5,747 nucleotides of DNA from a virus (taxonomy: Duplodnaviria > Heunggongvirae > Uroviricota > Caudoviricetes). Positions 1 to 5,157 of the stretch are shown here, piece by piece. Position numbers and translations under genes: made by a program. The DNA lies in the IMG/VR virus record IMGVR_UViG_2576861133_000018. One strand, written 5' to 3'. Numbering within the stretch: position 1 is the stretch's first letter; every line of letters begins with the position of its first letter. Under the pieces are notes generated by a model, which was not told where the DNA came from, did no database searches, and worked only from the letters and a program-made list of their open reading frames with translations.

Positions 1-15
1 CTCGGTTTACGAGAA
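1..15. other. Partial invertase crossover site (pix/gix-like), left boundary of the invertible segment, cut by the window edge
   Basis: ctcggtttacgagaa matches positions 12-26 of the reverse complement of the site at 3323-3348 (ttatctaaaacc tc ggtttacaggaa) except for an AG to GA swap. Only the core and one half-site are visible. Confidence 0.5.
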
Positions 16-948
16 CTCGGCACAAGCGGGGAGAAAATACCGTTACTCAGTACAGCGAATACCTGGACTAATCGACAAACATTCAGCGGTGGCCTTTCTG
101 GTGAACTATCCGGCAATGCTTCTACAGCTGCAAAATTAAAAACTGCCAGGAAAATAAGCAATGTGGCTTTTGATGGTTCCTCCGATATCACATTAAAAGC
201 AAGTCATGTTGGTGCGTTTGCCTTAGGGAAAACAGGAAGCACCGTTGCGAATGATAAAGCAGTTGGATGGAACTGGAGTAGCGGAGCCTATAACGCAACT
301 ATTAGTGGTGCATCAACGTTAATTATTCATTTTTATATGGGAGAAGGAAGTTGTCCTGCAGCTCAGTTTCGGATTAATTATAAAAATGGCGGTATTTTTT
401 ATCGTTCAGCCCGTGATGGTTATGGTTTTGAAGCCGACTGGTCCGAATTTTACACCACCACCAGAAAGCCTTCAGCAGGAGATGTTGGTGCACTGCCGTT
501 ATCTGGTGGTCAACTGAATGGTGCACTGGGTATCGGAACATCCAGTGCTCTTGGCGGTAATTCGATTGTATTGGGTGATAATGACACGGGCTTTAAACAA
601 AATGGCGATGGTAATCTGGATGTTTATGCTAATAACGTCCATGTTATGCGCTTTGTCTCCGGAAGCATTCAAAGTAATAAAACCATAAATATTACAGGGC
701 GTGTTAACCCCTCGGATTACGGTAACTTTGATTCCCGTTATGTGAAAGATGTTCGACTTGGTTCACAGCAATATTATGGAGTGAACAACTGGCAAACATG
801 GAATTTCCAGTGCCCTTCAGGTCATGTATTGTCTGGTATTAATGTTCAGGATACAGGGTCTAACTCTGCCGATAATATAGCGGGCGTTTATTACAGACCC
901 GTTCAAAAGTATATAAATGGCACCTGGTATAATGTAGCGAGCGTTTAA
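1..948 (+). CDS. Phage tail-fibre protein, C-terminal variable domain (5' end lies upstream of the window)
   Basis: Frame 1 is open from nt 1 to TAA at 946-948; the ORF track reports only the GTG-bounded part 163-948. Gly/Asn/Ser-rich. Shares motif [22 protein letters not shown] with the minus-strand paralogue (ALGGNSITLGDNDTGIKQGGDG) and a similar C-terminal tip ([14 protein letters not shown] vs RPLQKYISGNWYNV). Starts LGLRE, encoded by the partial crossover site at 1-15. A tfa gene follows 1 nt after the stop. Confidence 0.8.
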
Positions 949-949
949 T

Positions 950-1483
950 ATGATGCACTTAAAGAACATAAAAGCGGGTAATGCTAAAACACTGGAACAG
1001 TATGAGTTAACAAAGAAACACGGAGTTATCTGGCTTTACTCTGAGGACGGAAAAAACTGGTATGAGGAAGTGAAAAACTTTCAGCCAGACACCATAAAGA
1101 TTGTTTACGATGAAAATAATATTATTGTTGCCATAACCAAAGATGCCTCCACACTTAACCCTGAAGGTTATAGCGTCGTTGAGATTCCTGATATTACCGC
1201 CAACCGGCGTGCTGACGACTCAGGTAAATGGATGTTTAAAGATGGCGCAGTCATTAAACGTGTATATACCGAAGAAGAGTTGCGCCTACAGACGGAAAAC
1301 CAGAAAAAAATATTATTACAGCAGGCCAGAGAAAAAACGCAGTTCTGGCAAACACAGCTTACTTTGGGGATTATCACTGATTCAGACAGACAGCAACTGA
1401 TGAACTGGATGCGATACGTGCAACAGGTTGAGACAACTGATACCTCGGTTCTTCCTGTAACATTCCCGGAACCACCAGAATAA
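950..1483 (+). CDS. tfa: Tail-fibre assembly protein (Tfa chaperone)
   Basis: 177-aa ORF starting 1 nt after the tail-fibre stop. N-terminus [11 protein letters not shown]...[16 protein letters not shown] is nearly identical in pattern to the convergent paralogue at 1514-2041, with a divergent C-terminal half, as expected for Tfa/U-type chaperones. Start may be the second ATG at 953. Confidence 0.85.
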
Positions 1484-1513: not shown

Positions 1514-2041
1514 TTATTCTGGTTTCTGTGGCCATTCAGGCTTTGCAGTATCCACACGGCTGACCATAACGCTGTAGCGTTCCCATGATTCCAGTCGTGT
1601 GCGTTCCTCATCAGTTGCCATATTCAGTCTGACAGCACGTTCCAGCGGTTGAATCACAGACTCCGCTTCGGAAAGCAAAGCGGCTTTTTGTAACTCTGCC
1701 TGCTGTTGCAGTTCCTGTTTTGTATATTCCCGCTTTACTACTTTACCATCCAGAAACTTCCAGTTTCCCGAGATATCGGCGCGACGGTTGGCTGTTATAT
1801 TCGGTAACTCAACAACACTTAACCCGTCAGGGTTAAGTGTTGATACGTCTTTCTCAATACAACGAATAATCCCCTTCTGGTCATAAGCTATTTTTAAAGT
1901 ATCATCCTGAAAGTTTTTTAATTCGTCATACCAGTTTTTACCGTCTTCTGTATATAGCCAGATAACGCCAGCTTTTTTCGTAAGCTGATACTGCTCAATG
2001 GTTTTGGGGTTTCCGGCGGTAATATTTTTCAGATGTTGCAT
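1514..2041 (-). CDS. tfa: Tail-fibre assembly protein (Tfa chaperone), alternate copy
   Basis: 175-aa [43 protein letters not shown]..., paralogous to 950-1483. It lies immediately downstream of the minus-strand tail-fibre gene; start ATG 2039-2041 is 15 nt after that gene's stop. Confidence 0.85.
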
Positions 2042-2056
2042 ATATTCTCCTGATGG

Positions 2057-3338
2057 CTATGCCTGTTCAACGTTATACCAGTTACCAGAAATGTATTTTT
2101 GTAGTGGTCGTGACACCATCCAGTCATCTCCATCAACCTCACCAATAATTTGCAATCCTGTTGTCACATGACCATTACCTGGTTCGCAAAGTCCTCCGCG
2201 ATATAATGTGTCAGAACGTCTGCCTCCCAGACGCACATTTCTGATAAAAGAACTATTCAGGTAATCATTTAAGTTTGACCCCCAGCACCCACCAAATATA
2301 TTTCCATCGGTGTTATAACGGACGCCACCCGCAATAAGAGCACCCGGTGAAATAAAGGATTTATCGTTCGGGTTAAACTGCCATAAAGCATCATTACCGC
2401 CATCGCCACGCATATGAATACATGGAACCGGAAATCCATACTGTTCTGTCAGTAAATACCCAAAGCTGACCGCGCCGGGATAGCCCTGTCCATTGCGAAT
2501 GGACAAGCCCTTAACTATCGGCACGTAAAGACCACCAGGAGTGGGATTCCAGGCAAACTGCGTCTGAACAAAAGGCGCGGTGGCATTATTCAACTGGTCT
2601 GCAAATGCGCCACTTCCATCAGGAATTATTCCCTGATGAATATATGCAACCCGCTTATAAAAATCAGCAGATGCGGGTTGAAGCCCAAATGCCAGTTGTC
2701 CATTTGAATAGAATAAAAGGACACCGTCGCCGCCCTGTTTAATACCAGTGTCGTTATCTCCGAGAGTAATGGAATTACCGCCCAGTGCGTTATCTGTACC
2801 AAGCGCCAGCCCACCATCAATTTTGGCCCCGTGGCTGACAGATATAGCACCTGTTCTCAGATTTATAGCGAATGGCCTTAATGGGCCGATATCACCGTTT
2901 TCGCCTTGTCCTTCAGCCGTCGGAATGAAATGAAGAAAATCTTCTGAACGACGGAAAATAAGACCGAAGGCATCATTGAAAATTCGCAGCGCATTCACCG
3001 TGCCAATTTTCAGTTCTCCGGTCATTTTATCGCCGGAACGCTGAACGGCGTTACCAGCCTTGTTTACCGTTTCCTGTAAACCGAGGTAGACAGATATAGC
3101 ACCTGTTCTCAGATTTATAGCGAATGGCCTTAATGGGCCGATATCACCGTTTTCGCCTTGTCCTTCAGCCGTCGGAATGAAATGAAGAAAATCTTCTGAA
3201 CGACGGAAAATAAGACCGAAGGCATCATTGAAAATTCGCAGCGCATTCACCGTGCCAATTTTCAGTTCTCCGGTCATTTTATCGCCGGAACGCTGAACGG
3301 CGTTACCAGCCTTGTTTACCGTTTCCTGTAAACCGAGG
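2057..3338 (-). CDS. Alternate tail-fibre C-terminal variable domain (no own start; would be fused to the constant N-terminal part only after inversion); contains an in-frame 84-aa tandem duplication
   Basis: Frame is open from the crossover site down to the stop at 2057; the ORF track starts at Met 3277. Immediately upstream in frame is NLGLQETVNK, encoded by the crossover site, preceded by TAA. Shares the Gly-rich motif and C-terminal tip with the + strand tail fibre. The 5' boundary is approximate. Confidence 0.8.
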
Positions 3339-3340
3339 TT
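2837..3340. repeat. Perfect direct tandem duplication, 2 x 252 bp (copy 1 about 2837-3088, copy 2 about 3089-3340)
   Basis: By eye the two copies are identical over about 250 bp (gacagatatagcacctgttctcag ... gtttcctgtaaaccgagg). The encoded 84 aa (MTGELKIGTVNALRIF ... AVQRSGDK) appears twice in the 2057-3277 ORF. Each copy ends with ttcctgtaaaccgagg, the left half and core of the crossover site. Confidence 0.9.
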
Positions 3341-3348
3341 TTAGATAA
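3323..3348. other. 26-bp invertase crossover site (pix/gix/hix family), right boundary of the invertible segment
   Basis: ttcctgtaaacc ga ggttttagataa has two 12-bp inverted half-sites around a 2-bp core. From memory it differs at one position from the phage Mu gix site (TTCCTGTAAACCGAGGTTTTGGATAA). It lies just upstream of the invertase gene, the position it occupies in Mu, P1 and e14. Confidence 0.75.
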
Positions 3349-3349
3349 T
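3323..3349 (+). promoter_or_regulatory. Possible invertase promoter overlapping the crossover site
   Basis: -10-like GATAAT at 3344-3349, about 54 nt upstream of the GTG at 3403. In Mu and relatives the invertase promoter overlaps the crossover site. No convincing -35 was identified. Confidence 0.2.
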
Positions 3350-3402
3350 GGCGGTTTCTGGCCTGCATGGCATGATTTGTGCTTTTGGACGGGAGATTCA
3401 GC

Positions 3403-3645
3403 GTGCTGATTGGCTATGTAAGGGTATCAACAAATGACCAGAATACAGATCTGCAACGAAACGCTCTTGTTTGTGCAGGATATGAACAAATATTTGAAGA
3501 TAAATTAAGCGGAACAAGGACAGGCCGACCTGGATTAAAACGTGCTTTAAAGCGCCTTCAAAAAGGTGACGCACTGGTTGTCTGAAAACTGGACTGACTG
3601 GTTCACTGTATGCGGCATCTTGTCGTGCTGGTGGTGGAAGCCTAG
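3403..3645 (+). pseudogene. pin: Decayed Pin/Gin/Cin-family serine DNA invertase (N-terminal fragment only)
   Basis: RBS ggaga at 3392-3396, then GTG 3403 encoding (M)LIGYVRVSTNDQNTDLQRNALVCAGYEQIFEDKLSGTRTGRPGLKRALKRLQKGDALVV, the conserved invertase N-terminus including the catalytic Ser in VRVST. TGA at 3583-3585 sits where family members have Trp (WKLDRLGRS). A second in-frame TGA at 3595-3597 is followed by recognisable homology (HCMRHLVVLVVEA) to TAG at 3643-3645. The C-terminal two-thirds, including the DNA-binding domain, is missing. The ORF track calls 3379-3585. Confidence 0.75.
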
Positions 3646-3729
3646 AAAAAGTATCGGGTGTTACTGAACCGTGTTGATACATCAACTGCACCTGATATTG
3701 AGTGGCCTACGAACCCTGTCAGGGAGTAA
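3646..3729 (+). pseudogene. 3' fragment of a tail-fibre assembly gene, fused in frame to the invertase remnant
   Basis: Encodes [27 protein letters not shown], matching the C-terminus of the ORF at 4509-4778 ([27 protein letters not shown]). No start codon and no N-terminal part. Confidence 0.65.
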
Positions 3730-3780
3730 TCATTGGGATTATGCCGCAGCACGTCTTAAGCAAGAACGTGCTGCGGTTGG
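3646..3780. repeat. Direct repeat copy A (tfa 3' end plus downstream hairpin), about 135 bp, roughly 85-90% identical to copy B
   Basis: Identical blocks cgtgttgatacatcaactgcacctgatattgagtggcct and cctgtcagggagtaatcattgggattatgccgcag are shared with 4694-4829; differences are scattered elsewhere. Confidence 0.8.
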
Positions 3781-3792
3781 ATGCTATTTTTT
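3744..3792 (+). terminator. Hairpin with trailing T-run between the pin/tfa remnant (+) and the convergent methyltransferase gene (-)
   Basis: Perfect 11-bp stem ccgcagcacgt / acgtgctgcgg with an 11-nt loop (3744-3776), followed by ttggatgctatttttt. The T-run is separated from the stem by 8 nt, so not a textbook terminator. Confidence 0.4.
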
Positions 3793-4452
3793 CCCTGAAG
3801 CGGAAAACATTACTACAGTACCTTGAACCTTGGTTTTAACATTCTCGAAATGCTCTGAGAGTATATGTGTTAAGCCTTCTTCGGAATCTTTTGTGTTTGA
3901 AAAGATGCCTTTCTGATTGTAAATGCGCATCAGTTTTTGACCGAAGCTATTGTGCACAACTCCATCGCCAAGAATTGTGGCTCCGTATAGAGTTCCATCG
4001 TCAGTTAAGGCCTGCGCCGCATTGCGTATTACACAGCTTTTTGTAGATATATTTCCAGGCAGGCAGTGAAGAAGGTAAAACATGGAAATGGAATCAAATT
4101 GACCATGTAACGCCGCGGGATAAGGTTCAAAAACATCATGGCTAATTTTATGTTTAATTTTTGATTCCCCAGCCCTTGTAGATGCCGCGTTCAGGCTAGC
4201 TTCGTTCAAATCCATTAAAGATATCAGACTACTCTCAGGTACGTGAGTAAGGTAAAACCCAGTTCCAACACCAATATCCAGATGGTTGTTACCTACATGT
4301 TCCAGAAAGTGTGGAAGAAGGTGTTCCTTTGTAGGACATCCCCATGCAAGCCGATTTGATACTCCCAAAACCCACCAGTCATAAAGCTTTAGGGTAAGTG
4401 GTGTGTAAATTTTAGCCCCATCATCTGTGTTTTTTTTCATTGATTTCACCAT
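3784..4452 (-). CDS. Class I SAM-dependent methyltransferase (Rossmann fold), substrate unknown
   Basis: 222-aa ORF with glycine-rich motif I HLDIGVGTGFYL, an acidic post-I residue (LMDLN) and motifs II/III (FDSISMFYLLHCL, LTDDGTLYGATIL). No DPPY/NPPY/SPPF or PC/ENV DNA-methyltransferase motifs. Start could be ATG 4452 or the in-frame ATG 12 nt downstream; neither has a strong SD. Confidence 0.75.
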   Translation of the reverse strand: MVKSMKKNTDDGAKIYTPLTLKLYDWWVLGVSNRLAWGCPTKEHLLPHFLEHVGNNHLDIGVGTGFYLTHVPESSLISLMDLNEASLNAASTRAGESKIKHKISHDVFEPYPAALHGQFDSISMFYLLHCLPGNISTKSCVIRNAAQALTDDGTLYGATILGDGVVHNSFGQKLMRIYNQKGIFSNTKDSEEGLTHILSEHFENVKTKVQGTVVMFSASGKK

Positions 4453-4471
4453 GTTATAGTTTTATTTGTGA

Positions 4472-4500
4472 ATTAAATCAATTATGGCGATGAATTACAA
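4472..4500 (-). promoter_or_regulatory. Candidate sigma70 promoter for the methyltransferase gene
   Basis: On the minus strand: TTGTAA (plus 4495-4500), 17-nt spacer, TTTAAT (plus 4472-4477), about 20 nt upstream of ATG 4452, in an AT-rich 56-bp divergent intergenic region. Confidence 0.3.
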
Positions 4501-4508
4501 GGGGTTAA

Positions 4509-4778
4509 ATGCTGCCGCAGCATAGCGATATTGAAATAGCCTGGTATGCTTCGATACAGCAGGAGCCGAATGGCTGGAAGACCGTCACCACACAGTTCTA
4601 CATCCAGGAATTCAGTGAGTATATTGCGCCACTGCAGGATGCTGTAGATCTGGAAATCGCAACGGAGGAAGAAAGATCGTTGCTGGAGGCATGGAATAAA
4701 TATCGGGTATTGTTGAATCGTGTTGATACATCAACTGCACCTGATATTGAGTGGCCTGCAAATCCTGTCAGGGAGTAA
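4509..4778 (+). CDS. Truncated tail-fibre assembly protein (C-terminal domain only)
   Basis: 89-aa ORF with RBS aagggg 4 nt before ATG 4509. The C-terminal part ([39 protein letters not shown]) resembles the C-terminus of the Tfa at 1514-2041 ([36 protein letters not shown]). The conserved Tfa N-terminus (MxHLKNI...GVIWLY) is absent. Confidence 0.6.
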
Positions 4779-4829
4779 TCATTGGGATTATGCCGCAGAC
4801 ACGTCGTATGCAGGAACGTGCTGCGGTTA
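4694..4829. repeat. Direct repeat copy B (tfa 3' end plus imperfect hairpin 4793-4826)
   Basis: Partner of 3646-3780; see copy A. The hairpin ccgcagacacgt ... acgtgctgcgg has a one-base bulge. Confidence 0.8.
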
Positions 4830-4892
4830 GTTTGTGAGCTTTCGATAGTGGTTGTTATTTTTGCCCTTATTTGTTCCGGAGGCCATGGTTCA

Positions 4893-5063
4893 ATGGTCCG
4901 TCTGCCCCCTGTGGTGATGTCAGCAAAATCAGCCACTGCGCGAACCACAATAGCCCGGGAAGATGCTGAAGATCACCAGGTAAAGCTGTCAGCGCAGAAA
5001 CTGGAAGAACTGCTCGCATCAATGGTTAAGGATGAGGTTGATCGCAATGATGGGATTTATTGA
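4893..5063 (+). CDS. Hypothetical small protein (56 aa); possibly a pseudogene whose frame continues past an in-frame TGA to 5153
   Basis: ATG 4893 is preceded by ggagg at 4876-4880 (12-nt spacing). Encodes MVRLPPVVMSAKSATARTTIAREDAEDHQVKLSAQKLEELLASMVKDEVDRNDGIY. The ORF-track TTG start at 4782 overlaps the upstream hairpin and is less plausible. The same frame stays open after TGA 5061-5063 for 29 more codons to TAA 5151-5153. No recognisable family. Confidence 0.3.
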   Translation: MVRLPPVVMSAKSATARTTIAREDAEDHQVKLSAQKLEELLASMVKDEVDRNDGIY

Positions 5064-5157
5064 CGTCAGCGAGAGCAGAAGGAAGAACTGAATAACCTGA
5101 ATGATTTACGCTCAATCAGAGCGATGGCGATTAGCGGCAATCACGCTCGATAAAATT

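What the first reader, a model, noticed from the sequence alone, without database searches (positions are those of the whole stretch)
3379..3645. Invertase gene decayed by nonsense mutations and fused to a tfa 3' end, so the switch is probably locked
The sequence keeps the invertase N-terminus with the catalytic serine, but TGA replaces the conserved Trp codon at 3583-3585, a second TGA follows at 3595-3597, and around 3630-3645 the reading frame runs into the 3' end of a tfa gene. The DNA-binding domain and most of the catalytic domain are gone. The invertible segment therefore cannot be flipped by its own recombinase, although the crossover site looks intact and a paralogous invertase elsewhere in the genome could act in trans, as Gin, Pin, Cin and Hin cross-complement. 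The current orientation would express the + strand tail-fibre variant.
Basis: partly seen in the sequence, partly recalled or inferred. Interest (0 to 1): 0.5.

Follow-up and report, generated by a model that had tools for sequence, protein, structure and literature searches.

The report
Dead invertase gene, switch still flips
This is the decayed stump of a DNA invertase gene beside a phage tail-fibre inversion switch in E. coli ST131; the switch is not locked, because it is found in both orientations, and all of this was published in 2014.

Summary
Window 3403-3582 encodes residues 1-60 of a Gin-type serine invertase, about 95% identical in DNA to Mu and SfMu gin. TGA at 3583-3585 replaces the Trp61 codon and TGA at 3595-3597 replaces the Arg65 codon. 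A third stop, TAG, lies at 3643-3645. From about 3632-3640 the frame runs into the last 26 codons of a tail-fibre assembly gene. No other part of the invertase is in the window.

The inference that the switch is "probably locked" is wrong. The locus is prophage Phi4 of E. coli ST131. An inverted right junction that I built in silico occurs at 100% identity in 302 complete genomes. The window's orientation occurs in 152, all with the same stump. One assembly holds both orientations. Forde et al. 2014 saw Phi4 inversion in PacBio data, noted the truncated invertase and proposed action in trans by the invertase of the P2-like prophage Phi1. That gene is intact in three ST131 genomes I checked.

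New minor details:
- The stump is a Gin/Pin mosaic.
- It probably still carries the cis-acting Fis enhancer (inferred).
- The window has a private 252-bp in-frame duplication whose junction shows it formed in the inverted state.

Already known; low interest.

The parts
1..15 (.). Inner part of the left 26-bp crossover site. The full site is TTATCGAATACC TC GGTTTACGAGAA. The core TC is at window 2-3 and the half-site at 4-15. The outer half-site lies just upstream of the window.
   Evidence: L001 11990-12015 read directly. It matches the left (5') half of Phi4_5prime and the right half of Phi4_3prime in Table 3 of Forde 2014, as expected for the opposite orientation. Inverted repeat with 3323-3337 (I8).
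1..948 (+). Variable C-terminal part of the side tail fibre gene, as expressed in this orientation. It is joined in frame to the constant part upstream of the window.
   Evidence: JJ1886 annotation gives a 941-aa intact tail fibre ORF ending here. Pfam gp37_C and gp37_trimer.
950..1483 (+). Tail fibre assembly gene (tfa) that goes with the + strand variant.
   Evidence: 177-aa ORF. Caudo_TAP E = 6e-32.
1514..2041 (-). Alternative tail fibre assembly gene (tfa').
   Evidence: 175-aa ORF. Caudo_TAP E = 9e-35.
2057..3337 (-). Alternative variable C-terminal part of the tail fibre. It is silent in this orientation and becomes fused in frame to the constant part after inversion. Here it carries an extra 84 codons.
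   Evidence: Reading frame open from the crossover site. In EC958, which is in the inverted state, the fused ORF is intact at 968 aa.
2837..3340 (-). Two tandem copies of a 252-bp unit (2837-3088 and 3089-3340), in frame. Seen only in this window.
   Evidence: the repeat finder family D1. JJ1886 and 67 other full-length matches span 5495 bp, not 5747. The best matches start at query base 9. The junction is absent from genome contigs, metagenome contigs and the protein collection. The unit is contiguous with 0 mismatches only in the inverted state.
3071..3096 (.). Third, partly degenerate crossover-like site created by the duplication: TTCCTGTAAACC GA GGTAGACAGATA. It has the same orientation as the right site.
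   Evidence: Inverted repeat I7 with window 1-15. Sequence read directly. Whether it works was not tested.
3323..3348 (.). Right 26-bp crossover site, TTCCTGTAAACC GA GGTTTTAGATAA, with the core GA at 3335-3336.
   Evidence: Identical to the SfMu site and one base different from Mu gix. Forde 2014 Table 3.
3403..3582 (+). Invertase pseudogene, codons 1-60, Gin-like. GTG start; catalytic Ser9 codon at 3427-3429.
   Evidence: 57/60 residues identical to Mu Gin and 56/60 to the Phi1 invertase.
3424..3487 (.). Probable cis-acting recombinational enhancer, with two candidate 15-bp Fis sites: GTATCAACAAATGAC at 3424-3438 and GTGCAGGATATGAAC at 3473-3487. It lies about 120 bp from the right crossover core.
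   Evidence: Inferred. This stretch is the homologue of the 5' part of Mu gin, with two substitutions. The G and C ends of both 15-mers are invariant across gin, the Phi1 invertase, pinE and a fourth phage invertase, although nearby third codon positions vary. Serine invertases need a Fis-bound enhancer, about 100 bp from hixL in Hin. The title of Kahmann et al. 1985 places the Mu element inside the invertase gene (reference list).
3583..3585 (+). TGA in place of the Trp61 codon (TGG).
   Evidence: It is still TGG in the related X14-3 copy, so this mutation is the later one.
3595..3597 (+). TGA in place of the Arg65 codon. It is shared with the X14-3 copy and is therefore older.
3594..3640 (+). 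Second piece of the invertase stump (codons about 65-79). It is e14 Pin-like, not Gin-like, and is preceded by a strongly diverged patch at 3592-3608.
   Evidence: Alignment A4: 3609-3634 is 26/26 identical to pinE and to the vB_EcoM-606R2 invertase.
3632..3729 (+). 3' end of a tail fibre assembly gene, fused in frame to the stump. It contains TAG 3643-3645 in place of a Trp codon.
   Evidence: Direct repeat D2 with 4681-4798, 89% identical. Caudo_TAP positions 105-130 of 131. PGAP pseudogene. Homology to the widespread tfa-methyltransferase module begins at query bases 227-233, which is window 3629-3635.

Best explanation
The window is the right end of the defective lambdoid prophage Phi4 of E. 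coli ST131, which is inserted in ompW next to the trp operon. It holds a Mu G-segment-type tail-fibre switch: two mirror-image cassettes (variable fibre C-terminus plus tfa) between two inverted 26-bp crossover sites.

The switch's own invertase gene is dead. What remains is a Gin/Pin mosaic of about 79 codons with two TGA stops. An old deletion fused it to the last 26 codons of a downstream tfa gene.

The switch still works. An intact Gin-family invertase made elsewhere in the chromosome binds the two sites and inverts the segment. The most likely enzyme is the invertase of the P2-like prophage Phi1 at serS. The retained first 190 bp of the dead gene most likely still supply the Fis-bound enhancer that this enzyme family needs in cis.

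Shown: the pseudogene status, the intact sites, both orientations in nature, and an intact paralogue in the same genomes. Inferred: which enzyme does the work, and that the stump acts as the enhancer.
For: Identity of the locus:
- 100% match to JJ1886 and 67 other complete genomes.
- Annotation context.
- The Phi4 coordinates and crossover sites in Forde 2014 Table 3 coincide with the EC958 locus.

Dead gene.

The switch is active:
- The inverted junction is found at 100% identity in 302 complete genomes, and the window junction in 152, all with the same stump.
- Both orientations occur within one assembly: chromosome NZ_CP015085.1 and the spurious contig NZ_CP015087.1.
- A PacBio alternative contig for Phi4 came from one EC958 culture.
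- A preprint confirms inversion by PCR in ST131 isolates, in a prophage it does not list as carrying an invertase.
- The window's 252-bp duplicated unit is contiguous only in the inverted state, so this chromosome flipped after the duplication arose. The duplication is far younger than the pseudogene shared by about 450 genomes.
- Both orientations give complete fibre ORFs, 941 and 968 aa.

Trans enzyme:
- An intact 199-aa recombinase lies in the P2-like prophage at serS in EC958, JJ1886 and U12A, and it aligns full length with Gin and Pin.
- Forde 2014 reports that the Phi1 and Phi4 crossover sites are near-identical and proposes Phi1 action in trans.
- Cross-complementation among Gin, Cin, Pin and Hin is established knowledge, stated from memory.

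Enhancer:
- The 5' 191 bp are about 95% identical to Mu gin.
- The candidate Fis 15-mers are conserved.
- The family requires a Fis-bound enhancer in cis.
Against: - No experiment or computation here ties the inversion to the Phi1 enzyme specifically. ST131 genomes carry other invertases (Phi2, and Mu-like prophages in some strains).
- The enhancer positions in the stump rest on homology and on my memory of the Hin and Gin literature. I could not retrieve the primary papers.
- The 302:152 split alone could reflect two stable clades. The case for active switching rests on the within-assembly and within-culture evidence.
- Phi4 is defective, with an IS in lom and a truncated tape measure gene. 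The switching may therefore have no phenotypic consequence.
Confidence: 0.85

Rival explanations
1. The switch is locked in the present orientation because its recombinase is dead.
For: The invertase gene is unquestionably non-functional.
Against: Both orientations are found next to the identical stump in 302 and 152 complete genomes. They also occur together in one assembly and in one PacBio-sequenced culture. The window's own duplication records a flip.
Confidence: 0.03
2. The two orientations arise by general (RecA-dependent) homologous recombination between the short inverted repeats, not by a site-specific invertase.
For: No enzyme assay was done here. The sites lie inside a 36-bp imperfect inverted repeat.
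Against: A 36-bp repeat with three mismatches is far below efficient RecA substrate length (general knowledge). Yet the alternative allele was abundant enough in one culture to assemble as its own contig. The junctions in 454 genomes fall exactly at the 26-bp site, with the half-sites swapped as crossover at the core dinucleotide predicts. An intact invertase with near-identical sites is present.
Confidence: 0.04
3. Inversion is site-specific and acts in trans, but the enzyme is not the Phi1 invertase. It is another Gin-family paralogue, such as that of Phi2, a Mu-like prophage, or a plasmid or phage-plasmid.
For: Several invertible tail-fibre regions and invertases exist in ST131. U12A has a different allele of the serS-prophage invertase, only about 65% identical to the stump over the first 80 residues. 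Members of the family cross-complement broadly (from memory).
Against: The Phi2 crossover sites differ clearly from those of Phi4, whereas the Phi1 sites are nearly the same. All three genomes checked have an intact invertase in the serS prophage.
Confidence: 0.15
4. The stump still makes a functional product, either by stop-codon readthrough or as a 60-residue peptide that modulates the trans-acting invertase.
For: The 5' region and start codon are kept, and the first 60 codons are nearly unchanged.
Against: There are three in-frame stops. The rest of the catalytic domain, helix E and the DNA-binding domain are missing. The related X14-3 copy differs in which stops it has, as expected for neutral decay.
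Confidence: 0.01

Closest known systems
Prophage Phi4 tail-fibre inversion region of E. coli ST131 EC958 (Forde et al. 2014, PLoS One 9:e104400, PMC4134206)
   Same: It is the same locus. EC958 carries the identical stump and flanks (the in-silico inverted junction matches at 100%), the crossover sites match those published when inversion is allowed for, the invertase is 'severely truncated', and the downstream genes are the same. The paper already states that inversion must be mediated in trans, probably by the Phi1 invertase.
   Different: The window is in the opposite orientation to the EC958 reference. It also carries a 252-bp in-frame duplication not present in EC958 or in any other complete genome searched.
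Phage Mu G segment with Gin, gix sites and the sis enhancer
   Same: Mirror-image cassettes of fibre C-terminus plus tfa. 26-bp sites with a GA/TC core; the right site differs from Mu gix by one base. The invertase gene lies just outside the segment. The first 191 bp of the gene are about 92-95% identical to gin of Mu and SfMu.
   Different: The invertase here is a pseudogene. The host element is a defective lambdoid prophage, not a Mu-like phage. The stump switches to Pin-like sequence after codon 64.
e14 Pin / P-segment of E. coli K-12
   Same: It is a cryptic-prophage tail-fibre switch of the same family. Window 3609-3634 is 26/26 identical to pinE.
   Different: pinE is intact (184 aa) and its 5' half is clearly different in DNA from the window's 5' half.
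Truncated recombinase plus tfa fragment in the prophage next to bioA-ybhB in E. coli X14-3 (NZ_CP084055.1)
   Same: It has the same Gin/Pin mosaic, the same fusion to a tfa 3' end and the same TGA at codon 65, with 95% identity over 314 bp.
   Different: It sits at a different chromosomal site. It has no methyltransferase module downstream. Trp61 and the tfa Trp codon are still TGG.

Membership tests
Functional Gin/Hin/Cin/Pin serine DNA invertase | Complete resolvase-type catalytic domain (Pfam PF00239, about 145 positions) | tested here: not met
   Only profile positions 2-69 are covered, or 2-92 if two stops are read through.
Functional Gin/Hin/Cin/Pin serine DNA invertase | Catalytic serine in the N-terminal YVRVST motif | tested here: met
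   Ser9 codon at 3427-3429. The motif is identical to Gin, Pin and the Phi1 invertase.
Functional Gin/Hin/Cin/Pin serine DNA invertase | Oligomerisation helix E and C-terminal helix-turn-helix DNA-binding domain | tested here: not met
   tblastn with Gin and PinE finds nothing beyond residue about 99 anywhere in the window. What aligns after residue 80 is the tfa fragment.
Functional Gin/Hin/Cin/Pin serine DNA invertase | Uninterrupted ORF of about 185-200 codons | tested here: not met
   Stops at 3583, 3595 and 3643. Fusion to tfa at about 3632-3640.
Invertase-driven tail-fibre switch (Mu G / P1 C / e14 P type) | Two 26-bp crossover sites in inverted orientation with matching core dinucleotide | tested here: met
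   Left site TTATCGAATACC TC GGTTTACGAGAA. Right site at 3323-3348, TTCCTGTAAACC GA GGTTTTAGATAA. Forde 2014 Table 3.
Invertase-driven tail-fibre switch (Mu G / P1 C / e14 P type) | Two alternative fibre C-termini, each with its own tfa, in mirror-image arrangement and in frame with one constant N-terminal part | tested here: met
   ORFs and Pfam hits. Intact fused ORFs in both orientations: 941 aa in JJ1886 and 968 aa in EC958.
Invertase-driven tail-fibre switch (Mu G / P1 C / e14 P type) | Segment actually found in both orientations | tested here: met
   302 against 152 complete genomes. Both in one assembly. PacBio evidence in Forde 2014.
Invertase-driven tail-fibre switch (Mu G / P1 C / e14 P type) | Fis-dependent recombinational enhancer in cis | tested here: inconclusive
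   The DNA homologous to the 5' part of gin is retained with two substitutions, and two conserved candidate Fis 15-mers are present.
Invertase-driven tail-fibre switch (Mu G / P1 C / e14 P type) | Functional cognate invertase encoded next to the segment | tested here: not met
   The adjacent gene is a pseudogene. An intact paralogue lies about 530 kb away in prophage Phi1.

The most novel reading that the evidence does not exclude
The private 252-bp duplication may be real and may have turned a two-state switch into a multi-site one. It placed a third crossover-like site (3071-3096: intact left half-site and core, right half-site 8/12 like a working half-site) inside the segment. The trans-acting invertase could then also invert between the left site and this inner site, producing fibre variants that differ by an 84-residue repeat. 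This would be an early step toward a Min- or shufflon-like system. In addition, the dead gene may be kept because its first 190 bp are the enhancer that the orphan switch needs.
Probability: 0.1. Interest if true: 0.35.

Novelty: already known. Interest (0 to 1): 0.15.

Why it matters
The finding matters little beyond serving as a worked example. A pseudogenised recombinase next to an invertible segment does not mean the switch is frozen, because serine invertases of the Gin family act in trans on related sites. A defective prophage's tail-fibre switch can therefore be driven by another prophage in the same cell.

There is a practical point for annotation and assembly. Such loci produce spurious alternative contigs: one is deposited as an 'extrachromosomal' record, NZ_CP015087.1. 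They also produce orientation differences between near-identical genomes that should not be read as strain differences.

The idea that the 5' stump survives because it carries the cis enhancer is a small, testable addition to what is published.

Tried and rejected
1. I looked for the source of the 252-bp duplication.
   - The exact junction 30-mer gave no match in genome contigs or metagenome contigs.
   - The exact 406-aa product is not in the 15-billion-protein collection.
   - No complete E. coli genome extends across the junction.
   - The duplication therefore remains private to the window's unknown source, and I cannot exclude a sequencing artefact. A simple mis-join of the two orientations would not create the GTC|TACC junction.
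2. I considered whether the invertase made the duplication at a pseudo-site. I rejected this because the breakpoint lies 4 bp outside the core dinucleotide.
3. From memory I expected K-12 pinR to be the Pin-like relative. The fetched gene is a different, resolvase-like sequence and aligned poorly. e14 pinE was the right comparison.
4. I tried to retrieve the primary or review literature for the exact enhancer coordinates in gin and cin (PMC4384473, PMC146962, PMC400844). None is held, and one literature search returned only fish genomics papers. The enhancer claim therefore rests on homology, two open Hin papers and memory.
5. I considered using places_in_record = 1 as a sign that some genomes lack the Phi1 invertase. 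On inspection, U12A has an intact but more divergent allele at the same site, so that shortcut is invalid.

Full report
**What is in the window**

The 5747-bp window matches 68 complete E. coli genomes over its whole length at 100% identity. These include JJ1886, JJ1887 and other ST131 strains. The matches span 5495 bp rather than 5747 bp. In JJ1886 the annotation places the window at the right end of a lambdoid prophage inserted in ompW next to trpA. The gene order there is:
- gpJ;
- lom, interrupted by ISEc12;
- a 941-aa tail fibre gene;
- tfa;
- tfa on the opposite strand;
- a 'hypothetical protein' on the opposite strand;
- a recombinase pseudogene 'missing C-terminus';
- a tfa pseudogene 'missing N-terminus';
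- a class I SAM-dependent methyltransferase;
- another tfa fragment;
- a DUF4376 fragment;
- Rha and Ash.

The window begins inside the left crossover site. The full left site is TTATCGAATACC TC GGTTTACGAGAA. The right site is at 3323-3348, TTCCTGTAAACC GA GGTTTTAGATAA.

**Checking the observation**

Translation from GTG 3403 gives [105 protein letters not shown]. Mu Gin reads ...GDTLVVWKLDRLGRSMKHL....
- TGA 3583-3585 stands where gin has TGG (Trp61), and TGA 3595-3597 where gin has CGC (Arg65).
- A third stop, TAG 3643-3645, lies in the tfa part.
- Pfam places the 60-residue product on positions 2-69 of the 145-position Resolvase domain (E = 2.9e-15). The residues after the junction fall on the last 26 positions of Caudo_TAP (E = 2.2e-10).
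- DNA identity to SfMu gin is 94.9% over 3300-3593, and 92-94% to Mu and D108 gin.
- tblastn with Gin and PinE finds no other invertase sequence in the window.

The real start is GTG 3403, as in Mu. The GTG at 3379 only opens the mechanical ORF.

**Finer anatomy of the stump**

High identity to gin, and to the Phi1 invertase gene of EC958, ends at 3593. Positions 3609-3634 are 26/26 identical to e14 pinE and to the invertase of phage vB_EcoM-606R2, but only about half identical to gin. Between these two pieces lies a strongly diverged patch at 3592-3608, which contains the second TGA. The stump is therefore a Gin/Pin mosaic.

From about 3632 the sequence is a direct repeat (89% identical) of the tfa 3' end at 4681-4798. 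Homology to a widespread 'tfa 3' end - methyltransferase' module starts at window 3629-3635 in thousands of E. coli genomes. The fusion is in frame.

A copy of the same mosaic and the same fusion sits in a different prophage, next to ybhB-bioA, in strain X14-3, at 95% identity. That copy shares the TGA at codon 65 but has TGG at codon 61 and at the tfa Trp codon. So the deletion-fusion and TGA-65 are old. TGA-61 and the TAG are later decay in the ST131 lineage.

**Is the switch locked?**

It is not.
- I built the right junction expected after inversion: the reverse complement of window 1-300 joined at the core to window 3338-3640. This junction is present at 100% identity as a single piece in 302 complete genomes, EC958 among them.
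- The window's own junction (3089-3640) is present in 152. All of these carry the same stump.
- In strain O25b:H4 the chromosome (NZ_CP015085.1) has the inverted form. A 32.7-kb 'extrachromosomal' record (NZ_CP015087.1) has the window form. That record is simply a second copy of the Phi4-trp region, full of frameshifts. This is what a mixed culture gives in a long-read assembly.
- Similarly named isolates differ in orientation: 4/0 against 4/1-1 and 4/4; 1162C against 1162T7 and 1162invT2; 2019_APHA against 2017_APHA; p11A against p4A. I could not verify how close these pairs are, so this point is only suggestive.
- Both orientations give complete fibre ORFs: 941 aa in JJ1886 and 968 aa in EC958.

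**Published record**

Forde et al. 2014 (PMC4134206) describe this locus as prophage Phi4 of EC958.
- They give a 3106-bp invertible segment, with crossover sites at 1484784-1484809 and 1487865-1487890.
- They recovered a separately assembled alternative contig from one PacBio run.
- They add that Phi1 and Phi4 have near-identical 26-bp sites, so the Phi1 invertase may do it.

The EC958 coordinates coincide with the locus I fetched. A preprint on ST131 wound isolates reports PCR and XmnI-digest confirmation of tail-fibre switching in a P88-like and a BP-4795-like prophage. It lists an invertase only for the P88-like and phiE255-like prophages. That the BP-4795-like prophage is Phi4 is my assumption.

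**The trans enzyme**

The P2-like prophage at serS encodes an intact 199-aa recombinase in all three genomes I checked. EC958 and JJ1886 have WP_000905061.1, and U12A has a variant, WP_001375851.1. Both align over their full length with Gin and Pin. The Phi1 gene is about 96% identical in DNA to the stump up to 3593. Cross-complementation among Gin, Cin, Pin and Hin is established knowledge, which I state from memory. Which paralogue acts on Phi4 has not been tested.

**Probable role of the stump as DNA**

Serine invertases require a Fis-bound enhancer in cis. In Hin it lies about 100 bp from hixL. For Mu, the title of Kahmann et al. 1985 places it 'within the invertase gene' (reference list). 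The stretch homologous to the 5' part of gin is retained here with two substitutions. Two 15-mers with the G...C ends typical of Fis sites lie in it: 3424-3438 GTATCAACAAATGAC and 3473-3487 GTGCAGGATATGAAC. Their ends are conserved across gin, the Phi1 invertase, pinE and a fourth phage invertase, although neighbouring third codon positions vary. The centre of this stretch is about 120 bp from the right crossover core. I infer that the dead gene still supplies the enhancer. This is not shown.

**The duplication**

Window 2837-3088 and 3089-3340 are tandem copies of a 252-bp unit of 84 codons, in frame in the silent fibre variant. No complete genome has this duplication. The junction is also absent from the genome and metagenome contig collections and from the protein collection.

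The inner copy starts TACC TC GGTTTACAGG. The outer copy starts AACC TC GGTTTACAGG. TACC is the constant-side half-site, which adjoins this sequence only in the inverted state. The 252-nt unit is contiguous with no mismatch in EC958 (L005 3293-3544). The simplest history is a tandem duplication in the inverted state, followed by a flip at the outermost site. That flip occurred long after the invertase gene died.

The duplication leaves a third crossover-like site at 3071-3096. The breakpoint lies 4 bp outside the core, so the invertase did not make the duplication. I cannot exclude a sequencing artefact, but a mis-join of the two orientations would not create this junction.

**Verdict**

The pseudogene reading is correct. 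The matter has been in the literature since 2014. The novelty class is 'already known' and the interest is low. The mosaic origin of the stump, the probable enhancer role, the orientation census and the private duplication are small additions.

Noticed in passing
window 2837-3340 (junction at 3088/3089; quasi-site 3071-3096): There is a 252-bp in-frame tandem duplication in the silent tail-fibre variant. It is absent from every complete E. coli genome and from the contig and protein collections searched. Its junction carries the constant-side TACC, so it formed in the inverted state. It also creates a third crossover-like site.
   Followed up: partly
window 3592-3640: The invertase stump changes from Gin-like to e14 Pin-like sequence (26/26 identical to pinE at 3609-3634). 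Between the two pieces is a short patch (3592-3608) diverged from both. This suggests past recombination between invertase paralogues.
   Followed up: partly
L011 5001-5327 (E. coli X14-3, NZ_CP084055.1 4414647-4414973): The same mosaic stump fused to a tfa 3' end occurs in another prophage, next to ybhB-bioA, at 95% identity. It has TGG instead of TGA at codon 61 and TGG instead of TAG in the tfa part. This dates the fusion and TGA-65 as older than the other two stops.
   Followed up: partly
window 3632-4828: A class I SAM-dependent methyltransferase (3784-4452, minus strand) is flanked by two direct copies of a tfa 3' end (3632-3778 and 4681-4828, 89% identical). This tfa-methyltransferase module is present at 91-99% identity in thousands of E. 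coli genomes, including K-12-like laboratory strains at about 581 kb. From memory, that is the tfaD-ybcY-tfaX region of DLP12. The function of the methyltransferase is unknown.
   Followed up: no
L010 (NZ_CP015087.1, whole 32.7-kb record): A RefSeq record labelled 'extrachromosomal' is a frameshift-ridden second copy of the chromosomal Phi4-trp-rluB region with the segment in the other orientation. It is a spurious alternative-allele contig, not a replicon.
   Followed up: yes
L005 1418-4324 (EC958, NZ_HG941718.1 1482917-1485823): In the inverted state the fused tail-fibre ORF is intact (968 aa). RefSeq nevertheless annotates only its first 1497 bp, as a pseudogene 'missing C-terminus', and leaves the rest unannotated. 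Several other inverted-state genomes likewise show no feature over this stretch.
   Followed up: partly
window 4782-5150: A DUF4376-domain gene fragment with an internal stop lies between the second tfa fragment and the Rha/Ash genes. Together with the IS in lom and the truncated tape measure gene upstream, it shows that the prophage is broadly decayed.
   Followed up: no
window 3451 and 3483: The stretch proposed as the enhancer contains two ST131-lineage substitutions. One is C to T in the spacer. The other is G to A at position +2 of the second candidate Fis site, which is also the Cys27Tyr change. Mu, the Phi1 invertase and the X14-3 copy keep the ancestral bases. The effect on inversion rate is unknown.
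   Followed up: no
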